Source of the DNA: Escherichia coli
GTDB taxonomy: Bacteria; Pseudomonadota; Gammaproteobacteria; Enterobacterales; Enterobacteriaceae
Assembly: GCF_016026235.1 (NCBI RefSeq)
Contig: NZ_CP065613.1
Reading direction: 5' to 3' (one strand)
DNA length: 64,000 nucleotides
Positions 1 through 13,535 of this stretch are shown piece by piece (the stretch's first letter is position 1; each line of letters begins with the position of its first letter). Under the pieces are notes generated by a model that did not search any database, had not been told where the DNA came from, and saw only the letters and a list, made by a program, of their open reading frames with translations. The translations under genes were made by a program, and so were the position numbers.

Positions 1-36
1 TAACAGTACAATCAGTATGATGGCAAGTCGCATCAT
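1..36 (-). CDS. Ibs-family type I toxin, N-terminal 12 codons only (MMRLAIILIVLL); the rest lies beyond the window start
   Basis: Reverse complement of 1..36 reads ATG ATG CGA CTT GCC ATC ATA CTG ATT GTA CTG TTA; paralogous to the complete copy at 369..428. Confidence 0.5.
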   Translation of the reverse strand, partial: MMRLAIILIVLL

Positions 37-82
37 AACCCTTCTCCTTCAAGCCCTCGCTTCGGTGAGGGCTTTACCGTTA
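1..82 (+). ncRNA. Sib-type antisense sRNA (antitoxin), copy A, partial; 3' end approximate
   Basis: Fully antisense to the partial ibs ORF; ends at the GC hairpin GCCCTCGCTTCGGTGAGGGC (53..72) followed by TTT; inferred from family architecture. Confidence 0.3.
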
Positions 83-265
83 CAGCCCCATGCTGCCCAG
101 TTATCGTAAGCTCTCTTTAAATAACCGCAACGCATTGATCTACCTTTAAATCTTTTCTTCGAGCGCGCTCGAAAAACCCCATGCAAAACAGAGATAATTT
201 TTGGGAAAAAGGATCTATTACGGCAGTAAACGTGGGCGATGAAGTGGCTATCAAAAAGTTCGGTT

Positions 266-292
266 CAGGGCGATGCACCCCGCATCGCCCTG
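266..292 (-). terminator. Hairpin with 11-bp stem (CAGGGCGATGC / GCATCGCCCTG), possible terminator of the copy-B ibs transcript
   Basis: Perfect inverted repeat with 5-nt loop; on the minus strand a T-run follows after ~8 nt. Confidence 0.35.
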
Positions 293-334
293 ATTGACAT
301 CGTTGATTCTTTGACCTAATTTAGTGAGTAAGGG

Positions 335-474
335 TAAGGGAGGATGACTCCTCCCCTGAGACTGACTGTTAATAAGCTCCGAAACTTATCAGTAACAGTA
401 CAATCAGTATGATGACAAGTCGCATCATAACCCTTCTCCTTTAAGCCCTCGCTTCGGTGAGGGCTTTACCGTTA
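335..474 (+). ncRNA. Sib-type antisense sRNA (antitoxin), copy B; ends approximate
   Basis: Completely overlaps the ibs ORF on the opposite strand; 3' GC hairpin at 445..464 followed by TTT; candidate -35 TTGACC at 311..316; boundaries inferred, not measured. Confidence 0.4.
369..428 (-). CDS. ibsC: IbsC-like type I toxin, 19-aa hydrophobic peptide MMRLVIILIVLLLISFGAY
   Basis: Manual translation of the minus strand; AAGGAG Shine-Dalgarno 7-8 nt upstream of ATG; near-identical to my recollection of K-12 IbsC; below the ORF-track size cutoff. Confidence 0.75.
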   Translation of the reverse strand: MMRLVIILIVLLLISFGAY

Positions 475-533
475 CAGCCCCATGCTGTCCCGCCATCGTA
501 AATCCCCATTAAATAAACACAACGCATTGATCT
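393..533. repeat. Sib/Ibs repeat unit copy B
   Basis: Direct repeat of 1..141. Confidence 0.8.
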
Positions 534-602
534 GAGTTTGATTTATTTTCTGGAGCAGACTCGCAAAGTAGAATGCGCAACGCGGCAACGGTGTGGAGAA
601 GG

Positions 603-644
603 GATAAAAAAACGGGCAAGTCAGTGACCTGCCCGTTAATTTTC
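603..644 (-). terminator. Intrinsic terminator downstream of serA (bidirectional shape)
   Basis: Hairpin AACGGGCAAGTCAGTGACCTGCCCGTT flanked by an A-run and a T-run, immediately 3' of the serA stop. Confidence 0.6.
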
Positions 645-656
645 AGAGAAGGGGAA

Positions 657-1889
657 TTAGTACAGCAGACGGGCGCGAATGGTACCCGGAATAGCTTTCA
701 TTGCCTGCAGCGCTTTTTCGGCAACGTCTTCGTCAGCTTCAATATCAATAACTACATAACCCATCTGGGCGGAAGTTTGTAGATATTGCGCGGCGATGTT
801 GACGCCCTGCTCGGCGAAGATTTTGTTCAGCGCAGTTAGCACGCCCGGACGGTTTTCGTGGATGTGCATCAGACGACGACCACCATGCAGTGGCAGCGAG
901 ACTTCCGGGAAGTTCACCGCAGAGAGCGTTGAGCCATTGTCAGAATACTTGATCAATTTACCCGCAACTTCCAGGCCGATATTCTCCTGCGCTTCCTGAG
1001 TCGAACCGCCAATGTGTGGCGTCAGAAGGACGTTGTCGAATTCACACAGTGGAGAGGTAAATGGATCGCTATTGGTCGCCGGTTCCGTCGGGAATACGTC
1101 GATTGCCGCCCCCGCCAGATGTTTGCTCGCCAGCGCATCACACAGCGCCGGAATATCCACCACAGTACCGCGCGAGGCATTAATCAGCAGCGAGCCGGGC
1201 TTCATTAGCGAAATCTCTTTCGCGCCCATCATATTTTTGGTGGACGGATTCTCTGGTACATGCAGACTCACCACATCGCTCATATTCAGCAGGTCAGAAA
1301 GATGCTGTACCTGAGTGGCGTTGCCCAGCGGCAGTTTGTTTTCAATATCATAAAAGTAAACATACATTCCCAGCGATTCAGCCAGAATGCCCAATTGAGT
1401 ACCAATATGACCGTAGCCGATGATACCCAGCTTTTTGCCGCGCGCTTCAAAAGAACCCGCCGCCAGTTTGTTCCACACGCCACGGTGCGCTTTAGCATTG
1501 GCTTCCGGCACGCCGCGCAATAGCAGCAGCAGTTCGCCAATCACCAGCTCCGCAACAGAGCGCGTATTTGAGAACGGTGCGTTAAATACCGGGATCCCGC
1601 GCTTTGCCGCCGCATCCAGATCAACCTGGTTTGTTCCGATACAGAAACAGCCAATAGCGACCAGTTTTTCTGCGGCGTTGATCACGTCTTCAGTCAGATG
1701 GGTACGGGATCGCAGGCCGATGAAGTGGGCATCGCGGATGGATTCTTTTAATTGTTCATCATCCAGCGCGCCTTTGTGAAATTCGATGTTGGTGTAACCA
1801 GCTGCACGAAGGCTTTCCAGCGCCTTTTGGTGCACGCCTTCTACCAGCAGAAACTTAATCTTGTCTTTCTCCAGCGATACCTTTGCCAT
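657..1889 (-). CDS. serA: D-3-phosphoglycerate dehydrogenase
   Basis: 410-aa ORF; recognised SerA sequence with NAD-binding GxGxxG (GIIGYGHIGTQ). Confidence 0.97.
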   Translation of the reverse strand: MAKVSLEKDKIKFLLVEGVHQKALESLRAAGYTNIEFHKGALDDEQLKESIRDAHFIGLRSRTHLTEDVINAAEKLVAIGCFCIGTNQVDLDAAAKRGIPVFNAPFSNTRSVAELVIGELLLLLRGVPEANAKAHRGVWNKLAAGSFEARGKKLGIIGYGHIGTQLGILAESLGMYVYFYDIENKLPLGNATQVQHLSDLLNMSDVVSLHVPENPSTKNMMGAKEISLMKPGSLLINASRGTVVDIPALCDALASKHLAGAAIDVFPTEPATNSDPFTSPLCEFDNVLLTPHIGGSTQEAQENIGLEVAGKLIKYSDNGSTLSAVNFPEVSLPLHGGRRLMHIHENRPGVLTALNKIFAEQGVNIAAQYLQTSAQMGYVVIDIEADEDVAEKALQAMKAIPGTIRARLLY

Positions 1890-2804: not shown

Positions 2805-3186
2805 GATCGTTTCGCCTGTGGTATGAAATTTCACACGCATTATATACAAAAAAAGCGATTCAGACCCCGTTGGCAAGCCGCGTGGTTAACTCATCCATAA
2901 AATATCGCGCAATGGCGGGCATCCCCTTTCGCCCCGCAAATAAAGCATACAACGGTCTGGGTATGCCGCTCCACGGTGCGAACAGAGGCAATAACGCCAC
3001 GCCATTCAACATAACCAGGGCGCGAAGTCGCTAAGCGAAATGCAATAGCGCAAATCCCTGATCTTTTAAGCTGCGCGTTTAACCATTGATACAAATGTTA
3101 CCCGCCGACGGCTGCGGTATATGCAACCTGACACAAAATTGTGTCATAGTGCAGGAAAAAGCATTTACTAGGAGCAGACAACAGCA

Positions 3187-13435: not shown

Positions 13436-13535
13436 TGCCGGATGCGGCGTGAACGCCTTATCCGGCCTACAAAAACCTGCAAATTCAATATATTGCAGGA
13501 TACGTGTAGGCCTGATAAGCGTAGCGCATCAGGCA
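13436..13535. repeat. BIME: two inverted REP elements with a central palindrome
   Basis: GCCGGATGCGGCGTGAACGCCTTATCCGGCCTAC ... GTAGGCCTGATAAGCGTAGCGCATCAGGC. Confidence 0.85.

What the first reader, a model, noticed from the sequence alone, without database searches (positions are those of the whole stretch)
1..535. Tandem Ibs/Sib type I toxin-antitoxin repeat units downstream of serA
Two near-identical ~140-bp units lie 392 bp apart. Each carries, on the minus strand, a tiny hydrophobic ORF of the Ibs toxin family (copy B complete, 19 aa, with AAGGAG RBS; copy A cut by the window edge and differing R-L-A versus R-L-V). The antisense Sib antitoxin RNA must overlap on the plus strand. I recall a single sibC/ibsC at this locus in K-12, so the copy number here may be strain-specific. 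Neither ORF is in the supplied track because both are below its size cutoff.
Basis: partly seen in the sequence, partly recalled or inferred. Interest (0 to 1): 0.5.

Follow-up and report, generated by a model that had tools for sequence, protein, structure and literature searches.

The report
Two tandem SibC/IbsC toxin-antitoxin modules
The start of this E. coli window holds two tandem copies of the well-known Sib/Ibs small-RNA/toxic-peptide pair where K-12 has one, but about a third of sequenced E. coli share this layout and it is already annotated, so it is ordinary.

Summary
Window 1-141 repeats at 393-533 (offset 392, 91% identity; no other offset exceeds 40%). The Rfam Sib model hits copy B at 134 bits. 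It hits the truncated copy A at 44.5 bits, and at 137 bits when copy A is read whole in an identical genome. Both copies carry an intact 19-aa Ibs ORF with an AAGGAG ribosome-binding site on the minus strand.

Both copies belong to the SibC/IbsC lineage (about 94-95% identical to K-12 sibC). K-12 has a single copy between fau and serA. The two-copy layout is not strain-specific. Its diagnostic 125-bp spacer occurs once in 1870 of 5426 complete E. coli genomes (34.5%), and RefSeq annotates both toxin genes. Published counts already show variable Ibs numbers (EDL933 6, Sakai 7).

The duplication is old. The spacer is only a faint relative of the sequence that follows copy B. At least one single-copy locus is an exact hybrid of the two copies, which points to collapse by unequal crossover.

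The copies differ mainly in the TRD1 recognition loop and by only one base in TRD2. I therefore infer distinct primary specificity with probable cross-protection.

Verdict: already known, low interest.

The parts
1..78 (+). 3' 78 nt of Sib copy A antitoxin RNA. The full 141-nt RNA starts 62 nt before the window (L002 2938-3078). This part includes TRD2 and the terminator hairpin.
   Evidence: Truncated Rfam hit at 1-52, 44.5 bits. Full hit in the identical genome L002 at 2902-3052, 137 bits. The 3' end is placed by alignment to annotated K-12 sibC.
1..36 (-). First 12 codons of the ibs copy A toxin ORF (MMRLAIILIVLL...). The full peptide is MMRLAIILIVLLLISFPAY.
   Evidence: Translation. Full ORF at L002 2977-3036, annotated WP_001387035.1 'type I toxin-antitoxin system Ibs family toxin'.
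44..49 (-). AAGGAG Shine-Dalgarno sequence of ibs copy A
   Evidence: Read directly from the sequence.
79..141 (-). ibs copy A 5' leader and promoter region. The mRNA 5' end is inferred at 96, with a -10-like TACGAT at 103-108.
   Evidence: Homologous to the copy B region. The 5' end comes from the 18-nt 5' overhang of the K-12 ibsC mRNA (PMC2943612). This placement is inferred.
142..266 (.). 125-bp inter-copy spacer, diagnostic of the two-copy arrangement. It is a decayed paralogue of 534-658 and contains a 16-nt perfect palindrome, TTCGAGCGCGCTCGAA, at 158-173.
   Evidence: No K-12 counterpart at this locus. Present once in 1870 of 5426 genomes. Weak similarity to 534-658: z = 3.7, 0 of 500 shuffles reach it. 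Identity to post-B segments is 54-66%.
266..292 (.). 11-bp perfect hairpin (CAGGGCGATGC-ACCCC-GCATCGCCCTG) that begins the repeated module. On the minus strand it is followed by a T-run, so it may terminate ibs-B transcripts. The equivalent hairpin before copy A follows the fau stop codon.
   Evidence: Sequence. Conserved at the start of every module. The function is inferred only.
294..322 (+). Sib copy B promoter: -35 TTGACA at 294-299, a 17-nt spacer, and -10 TAATTT at 317-322 preceded by C.
   Evidence: Identical to the K-12 sibC promoter region. +1 follows from the K-12 annotation. The K-12 sibC promoter is bound by E-sigmaS (PMC4447067).
330..470 (+). Sib copy B antitoxin RNA, 141 nt, starting with A. 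TRD1 is at 375-397 (+46..+68), TRD2 at 428-444 (+99..+115), and the terminator hairpin at about 443-466.
   Evidence: Rfam hit at 294-444, 134.2 bits. Aligned to K-12 sibC. The fold has z = -5.96 with the published stem layout. TRD positions are from PMC2943612.
369..428 (-). ibs copy B toxin ORF, MMRLVIILIVLLLISFGAY (19 aa). It is 18/19 identical to K-12 IbsC.
   Evidence: Translation. Annotated as ibsC, WP_071524576.1, in identical genomes. Compared with IbsA-E.
436..441 (-). AAGGAG Shine-Dalgarno sequence of ibs copy B, 7 nt upstream of the ATG. It lies inside the TRD2 target.
   Evidence: Sequence. TRD2 targets the translation initiation region (PMC2943612).
330..488 (-). ibs copy B mRNA, 159 nt by homology with the K-12 ibsC mRNA. 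It is fully overlapped by Sib-B apart from an 18-nt 5' overhang.
   Evidence: PMC2943612: 159-nt ibsC mRNA with an 18-nt 5' overhang. The fold has z = -5.07. The ends are inferred, not measured in this strain.
489..533 (-). ibs copy B promoter region (-10-like TACGAT at 495-500). This is the end of the repeated module.
   Evidence: Position relative to the inferred transcription start. Conserved between copies up to 141/533.
534..656 (-). Sequence between module B and serA, including the serA intrinsic terminator at 611-637.
   Evidence: Terminator scan. At least 98% conserved across typical E. coli.
657..1889 (-). serA (phosphoglycerate dehydrogenase), the flanking gene.
   Evidence: ORF list and RefSeq annotation.

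Best explanation
Window 1-535 is the serA-proximal part of the E. coli fau(ygfA)-serA intergenic region. It carries two tandem paralogous type I toxin-antitoxin modules of the SibC/IbsC lineage. Each module is about 267 bp and self-contained. It has a plus-strand promoter and a 141-nt Sib antitoxin RNA. On the opposite strand it has a promoter and a roughly 159-nt ibs mRNA, fully overlapped by Sib, that encodes a 19-aa hydrophobic peptide.

The mechanism is taken from K-12 SibC/ibsC and not tested here. Sib pairs with its ibs mRNA, starting at two independent recognition sites. TRD1 is a hairpin loop that pairs inside the 3' part of the ORF. TRD2 is a single-stranded stretch that pairs over the Shine-Dalgarno region. 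Pairing then spreads, blocks translation and exposes the duplex to RNase III. If Sib is lost, the Ibs peptide accumulates and damages the inner membrane.

The two-copy state comes from an old 392-bp tandem duplication. It persists as a common polymorphism in about one third of E. coli, and it collapses back to one copy by unequal crossover between the repeats.

The copies differ at TRD1 (positions +50, +51 and +61) but by only one base in TRD2 (+113). I infer that each Sib prefers its own mRNA through TRD1, and that the two can probably cross-repress through TRD2.
For: Identity of the elements:
- Rfam SIB_RNA scores 134.2 bits (copy B), 137.0 bits (copy A read whole in L002) and 133.8 bits (K-12 sibC), against a gathering score of 56.
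- Both copies are about 94-95% identical to K-12 sibC, about 70% to sibD/E and about 58% to sibA/B.
- The peptides are 18/19 (copy B) and 17/19 (copy A) identical to K-12 IbsC.
- RefSeq names them ibsC and Ibs family toxin.
- The Sib-B and ibs-B RNAs fold far better than shuffles, z = -5.96 and -5.07. The stem layout is the same as for K-12 SibC.

Mechanism:
- TRD1 and TRD2 act independently, and either one suffices for repression (PMC2943612).

Population and evolution:
- K-12 has one copy in a 389-bp gap. The identical-sequence genome has a 781-bp gap.
- The spacer occurs in 1870 of 5426 genomes, once each.
- Outgroup species have one copy.
- The spacer is faintly similar to the post-B sequence (z = 3.7; 54-66% identity).
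- The single STO_Bone1B locus is an exact hybrid, copy A at the 5' end and copy B at the 3' end.

Specificity:
- Predicted TRD1 duplex energy is -38 kcal/mol for cognate pairs and -21 to -24 for cross pairs.
- TRD2 cross pairs lose 0 to 5 kcal/mol, and Sib-B on ibs-A only swaps a G-C pair for a G.U wobble.
Against: Nothing contradicts the identification. No expression, toxicity or repression data exist for this strain, so transcript ends and function are carried over from K-12. An NCBIfam profile scan of the peptides, padded to 20 aa, found nothing. That is uninformative for peptides this short and hydrophobic. The age of the duplication is unresolved. Parsimony over the outgroups suggests a single-copy ancestor, while the deep spacer divergence suggests an older duplication with repeated losses. 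The cross-repression prediction rests only on duplex energies and on analogy with published mutants.
Confidence: 0.93

Rival explanations
1. The second copy is a recent, strain-specific duplication.
For: K-12 has only one copy at this locus. The copies are 91% identical over 267 bp.
Against: The spacer that marks the two-copy state is in 34.5% of complete genomes across several lineages. Spacers differ by 7-30% between lineages while the flanks differ by 0-4%. The spacer is only 54-66% identical to its presumed source sequence.
Confidence: 0.02
2. One of the two copies is a decaying, non-functional remnant, so the locus works as a single module.
For: Redundant toxin-antitoxin copies often decay. 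Many lineages have lost one copy by collapse. One isolate has lost both.
Against: Both copies keep intact 19-codon ORFs, AAGGAG sites, -35/-10 elements, terminator hairpins and full-length model scores of 134-137 bits, as high as K-12 sibC. The window-type spacer haplotype is at least 99% conserved in 1475 genomes. The copy A peptide is the sole copy in a cryptic-clade Escherichia.
Confidence: 0.05
3. The two modules are fully insulated cognate pairs. Each Sib would repress only its own ibs mRNA, as reported for most K-12 Sib/ibs pairs, and there would be no cross-protection.
For: The copies differ at +50/+51. These lie within the +49-51 trinucleotide that Han et al. mutated to switch TRD1 specificity. 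In all four positional allele combinations seen, the two copies carry different TRD1 alleles. At most 4 genomes carry the same allele twice.
Against: TRD2 differs by one base only, and it is a G.U wobble in one direction. Han et al. found that either TRD alone represses, and specificity was lost only when both were changed. They also linked ibsA cross-recognition to a shared +90..+113 region. The mixed-allele pattern could also reflect shared descent, or the instability of identical tandem repeats.
Confidence: 0.3
4. The repeat is an assembly or chance artefact.
For: None, beyond the fact that copy A is cut by the window edge.
Against: The same arrangement occurs in 1870 complete genomes. Identity is 91% at offset 392, against 40% or less at any other offset.
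Confidence: 0.005

Closest known systems
sibC/ibsC of E. coli K-12 MG1655 (b4446/b4665), a type I toxin-antitoxin pair
   Same: It occupies the same locus (fau-serA), with the same orientation, promoter, 141-nt RNA length, fold and terminator. Sib is about 94-95% identical and the peptide 17-18/19 identical.
   Different: There are two tandem modules here instead of one. The TRD1 loop sequence differs: GCUGGG (copy A) and GCUCCG (copy B), against GCGCUG in K-12. This changes peptide residue 17 to P or G instead of S. Copy A also has V5A, and copy B has U113 in TRD2.
sibA/sibB and sibD/sibE tandem pairs of K-12 (formerly QUAD repeats)
   Same: They have the same architecture: two Sib/ibs modules in tandem in one intergenic region. 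Spacing is 335 and 376 bp, against 392 bp here.
   Different: They lie at different loci (yegL-mdtA and yqiK-hldE) and belong to different sequence lineages (58-71% identity). sibA/B start with G and are not NAD-capped, whereas sibC/D/E start with A.
The annotated two-copy fau-serA locus of other E. coli, such as O157:H7, O55:H7, O111 and SE11
   Same: It is the same thing. Six complete genomes match window 1-660 at 100%, and both Ibs genes are annotated.
   Different: Lineages differ in which TRD1 allele sits in which position, and in the spacer sequence.
ldr/rdl long direct repeats of E. coli
   Same: This is another chromosomal type I toxin-antitoxin family found as tandem repeats in one intergenic region, with strain-variable copy number (PMC2887945).
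   Different: The sequences are unrelated, the toxin is 35 aa, and the antisense RNA is arranged differently.

Membership tests
Sib antitoxin RNA (Rfam RF00113) | Covariance-model score at or above the gathering threshold (56 bits) | tested here: met
   Copy B scores 134.2 bits. Copy A read whole in L002 scores 137.0 bits. The in-window fragment of copy A scores 44.5 bits, E = 7.8e-8, and is truncated. K-12 sibC scores 133.8 bits.
Sib antitoxin RNA (Rfam RF00113) | Encoded exactly antisense to an ibs ORF and spanning its ribosome-binding site and coding region | tested here: met
   Sib-B at 330-470 (+) covers the ibs-B ORF at 369-428 (-) and its Shine-Dalgarno site at 436-441.
Sib antitoxin RNA (Rfam RF00113) | Own promoter and intrinsic terminator giving a roughly 140-nt transcript | tested here: inconclusive
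   The promoter is identical to the K-12 sibC promoter and the terminator hairpin is present. The generic sigma-70 scan did not flag it. No expression data are available for this strain.
Sib antitoxin RNA (Rfam RF00113) | SibC-type secondary structure, with TRD1 in a hairpin loop and TRD2 single-stranded between the P1 stem and the terminator | tested here: met
   The minimum-energy fold of both copies equals that of K-12 SibC, z = -5.96. TRD definitions are from PMC2943612.
Ibs toxin peptides | 18-19-aa hydrophobic peptide homologous to IbsA-E (MM[KR]... ending in ...SFxxY) | tested here: met
   MMRLVIILIVLLLISFGAY and MMRLAIILIVLLLISFPAY, against IbsC MMRLVIILIVLLLISFSAY. RefSeq gives the names ibsC and Ibs family toxin.
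Ibs toxin peptides | Match to a curated protein-family profile | tested here: inconclusive
   An NCBIfam hmmscan of the peptides, padded to 20 aa, returned no family. The Pfam and cluster look-up tools reject sequences under 30 and 20 aa.
Ibs toxin peptides | Toxic when overexpressed (membrane damage) | not testable with these tools
   Known for K-12 IbsC from the literature (PMC2943612). Not tested for the G17 or A5/P17 variants.
Type I toxin-antitoxin system | The antisense RNA represses toxin synthesis by pairing with the toxin mRNA | not testable with these tools
   Complementarity follows automatically for a cis-antisense pair. Repression has been shown only for K-12 pairs.

The most novel reading that the evidence does not exclude
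The most novel reading not excluded is that the fau-serA Sib/Ibs array is an old, selectively maintained polymorphism. A small set of TRD1 'specificity alleles' accounts for about 98% of modules in 5426 genomes. There are four of them, each tied to residue 16-17 of the toxin: SFGAY, SFPAY, SFSAY and SLPAY. These alleles are shuffled between the two positions by recombination, and two-copy genomes almost always carry two different alleles. That would mean selection for non-identical recognition loops, and that toxin residue 17 is shaped by RNA-RNA specificity rather than by protein function.
Probability: 0.2. Interest if true: 0.35.

Novelty: already known. Interest (0 to 1): 0.1.

Why it matters
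It matters little beyond correct annotation. Tools built on K-12 expect one sibC/ibsC here, and gene callers with a size cut-off miss both 19-codon toxin genes. A two-copy strain therefore carries one more toxin-antitoxin module than a K-12-based annotation would report. For specialists, the natural TRD1 allele series at one locus offers ready-made material for testing how cis-antisense RNAs tell near-identical targets apart. The variation sits at the same positions that Han et al. mutated.

Tried and rejected
1. Coverage counts ('at least 80% of the query covered' in 5367 and 5414 genomes) first suggested that nearly all E. coli have two copies. This was rejected. In single-copy genomes the tool joins two pieces that map onto the same 439-bp stretch (see the pieces = 2 rows). 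The spacer-only query is the valid marker.
2. A simple recent tandem duplication was rejected on spacer divergence.
3. An NCBIfam profile scan of the peptides gave no hit and is uninformative. The cluster look-up refuses sequences under 20 aa.
4. The founding paper, Fozo et al. 2008 (PMC2597788), is not held. Its statements on strain copy number could not be checked. Fozo et al. 2010 was used instead.
5. The generic promoter scan did not flag the Sib or ibs promoters. Promoter positions therefore rest on homology with mapped K-12 start sites.
6. I tested whether TB06052 is simply the B1 arrangement with its segments swapped. It is not. Its spacer belongs to the spacer family, and its post-B segment is closest to E. 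albertii at 88%.
7. Differences between the copies are not statistically enriched in the TRDs. Four of the 8 differences between A and B fall in the 40 TRD nucleotides, against about 2.3 expected. The sample is too small to be significant, so I make no such claim.

Full report
OBSERVATION. The window begins inside a repeated element. Window 1-141 matches 393-533 at 128/141 (90.8%), and 1-78 matches 393-470 at 76/78. No other offset between 150 and 2800 gives more than 40% identity. On the minus strand, 369-428 translates to MMRLVIILIVLLLISFGAY*, with AAGGAG at 436-441, 7 nt upstream of the ATG. On the same strand, 1-36 translates to MMRLAIILIVLL and runs off the window.

WHAT IT IS. The Rfam Sib model (RF00113, gathering score 56) hits 294-444 on the plus strand at 134.2 bits. 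It hits the truncated copy at 1-52 at 44.5 bits, E = 7.8e-8. Window 1-660 is 100% identical to six complete E. coli genomes. In one of them (FDAARGOS_943, locus L002; window position = L002 position minus 3000), copy A is complete and scores 137.0 bits. RefSeq annotates two genes there between fau and serA: an 'Ibs family toxin' (WP_001387035.1) and ibsC (WP_071524576.1). Aligned with the five K-12 Sib genes, both copies fall in the SibC lineage. They are about 94-95% identical to sibC, about 70% to sibD/E and about 58% to sibA/B. The peptides are 17/19 and 18/19 identical to IbsC.

COORDINATES. The Rfam model is offset from the real transcript. In K-12 the hit is at L001 1816-1966, while sibC is annotated at 1852-1992. 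The model therefore starts at the -35 hexamer and omits the terminator. By alignment to K-12, Sib-B RNA is window 330-470 (141 nt, starting with A), and Sib-A ends at 78. Han et al. 2010 describe a 159-nt ibsC mRNA with an 18-nt 5' overhang beyond the SibC 3' end (PMC2943612). That places the ibs-B mRNA at 488 down to 330 and its promoter at about 489-533. The repeated module is thus window 267-533. It contains a leading hairpin, the Sib promoter, the overlapping Sib and ibs transcripts, and the ibs promoter, so it is a complete self-contained unit. Sib-B and the ibs-B mRNA fold much better than shuffled controls (z = -5.96 and -5.07). Both Sib copies give the same stem layout as K-12 SibC.

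IS THE COPY NUMBER UNUSUAL? K-12 MG1655 has one sibC/ibsC in a 389-bp fau-serA gap, whereas the window-type genome has a 781-bp gap. K-12 aligns to either copy. The 125 bp between the copies (window 142-266) has no K-12 counterpart, so I used it as a marker. It occurs exactly once in 1858 (megablast) or 1870 (blastn) of 5426 complete E. coli genomes, which is 34.5%. Of these, 1475 match at 99% or better. O157:H7 and O55:H7 match at 86.5%, and O145 and O157:H16 at about 83%. PGAP annotates two Ibs genes in these lineages too. An evenly spaced sample of the ranking shows the remaining genomes to be single-copy like K-12. Fozo et al. 2010 already list 6 Ibs genes in EDL933, 7 in Sakai and 7 in S. 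boydii, and note duplications of the family (PMC2887945). The arrangement is therefore common, annotated and published in outline.

HISTORY OF THE DUPLICATION. A scan of one genome per species found a single copy in gaps of about 390-480 bp in four outgroups: E. albertii, Escherichia sp. MOD1-EC7003, a Citrobacter and a Pseudocitrobacter. The MOD1-EC7003 peptide is identical to the window's copy A. A plain 392-bp tandem duplication predicts that the spacer is a paralogue of window 534-658. Only faint similarity remains (z = 3.7, 0 of 500 shuffles reach it; 54-66% identity). Among two-copy haplotypes the spacer differs by 7-30%, whereas the flanking fau and serA sequences differ by 0-4%. Between the window type and O157:H7, divergence is confined to module A (4.5%) and the spacer (13.5%), while module B, the post-B segment and the flanks differ by 0-0.8%. 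The duplication is therefore old and the region is a recombination mosaic. The single-copy locus of strain STO_Bone1B is an exact hybrid, copy-A-like at the 5' end and copy-B-like at the 3' end, with the switch between Sib +18 and +30. This is what unequal crossover between the repeats would produce. Whether the ancestor of E. coli had one or two copies remains unresolved.

MECHANISM. Part of this is shown in K-12 and part is inferred here. In K-12, SibC represses ibsC through two independent recognition domains. TRD1 (+46..+68) is a hairpin loop that pairs within the ORF. TRD2 (+99..+115) is single-stranded and pairs over the translation initiation region. Either domain suffices, and specificity is lost only when both are changed (PMC2943612). 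The K-12 sibC promoter is bound by E-sigmaS (PMC4447067). SibC is NAD-capped at its +1A (PMC12956327), and both copies here keep +1A. The window's copies differ at eight Sib positions: +17, +18, +30, +50, +51, +61, +86 and +113. Positions +50 and +51 lie within the +49-51 trinucleotide that Han et al. mutated to switch TRD1 specificity. Predicted TRD1 duplexes are -38 kcal/mol for cognate pairs and -21 to -24 for cross pairs. In TRD2 only +113 differs. Sib-B on ibs-A merely swaps a G-C pair for a G.U wobble (-25.4 against -25.3). Sib-A on ibs-B has one C.A mismatch (-22.8 against -27.6). I infer distinct primary recognition through TRD1 and probable mutual cross-repression through TRD2. This resembles the cross-recognition of ibsA that Han et al. 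linked to a shared +90..+113 region. It is a prediction, not a result.

POPULATION SIDE-RESULT. Four TRD1 alleles were counted with 45-nt allele-specific queries. They give peptide endings SFGAY, SFPAY, SFSAY and SLPAY, and occur at 1844, 2790, 2168 and 346 places. Together these 7148 places cover about 98% of the roughly 7295 expected modules. At most 4 genomes carry one allele twice. The alleles occupy different positions in different lineages: (P,G) in the window type, (LP,G) in O157:H7, (S,P) in Santai and C325, and (G,P) in TB06052. This fits selection for non-identical recognition loops. It fits equally well with shared descent and with the instability of identical repeats, so I claim no more than the pattern.

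VERDICT. The finding is a correct identification of a known, annotated system in a common arrangement. Novelty is 'already known' and interest is low.

Noticed in passing
L007 (E. coli O157:H7 TR01, NZ_CP033605.1) 728-934; equivalent to L003 about 968-1542: One complete O157:H7 genome lacks both Sib/Ibs modules. A roughly 575-bp deletion joins the Sib-A -35 region directly to the ibs-B 5' end. Both toxins and both antitoxins are removed together, leaving a 207-bp fau-serA gap. The whole array is therefore dispensable.
   Followed up: partly
window 294-444 versus 330-470; L001 1816-1966 versus 1852-1992: The Rfam SIB_RNA model is offset from the annotated transcript. It starts at the promoter -35 hexamer, 36 nt upstream of +1, and stops 26 nt before the 3' end, so it omits the terminator hairpin. 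Rfam coordinates should not be read as RNA ends.
   Followed up: yes
L009 (E. coli TB06052, Galapagos fresh water) 334-1114: This two-copy haplotype has its alleles in the opposite order: the G-type allele next to fau, and the window's copy-A peptide next to serA. Its spacer is 76.6% identical to the window's. Its post-B segment is about 19% diverged from other E. coli and closest to E. albertii (88%). This suggests introgression or a very old haplotype.
   Followed up: partly
L012 (E. coli STO_Bone1B) 101-539: This single-copy locus is an exact hybrid of the two window copies: copy-A-like up to Sib +18 and copy-B-like from +30 onward. It looks like the footprint of collapse by unequal crossover.
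   Followed up: partly
window 158-173: There is a perfect 16-nt palindrome, TTCGAGCGCGCTCGAA, inside the inter-copy spacer. It has no counterpart in the paralogous post-B sequence, and its function is unknown.
   Followed up: no
window 266-292: An 11-bp perfect hairpin opens each repeated module. On the minus strand it is followed by a T-run, so it may terminate ibs transcripts. The copy upstream of module A sits just after the fau stop codon and could terminate fau.
   Followed up: no
window 53335-53405 (-) and 13471-13513 (+): There are two further Rfam hits at gathering level: naRNA4/CssrE (60.9 bits against a threshold of 59.5, probably a REP-type element) and ES036/CssrF (47.3 bits against 37.6).
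   Followed up: no
(K-12-type TRD1 allele query): One of the 2168 places matching the K-12-type sibC TRD1 45-mer lies on a plasmid record. Up to three genomes carry this allele twice.
   Followed up: no
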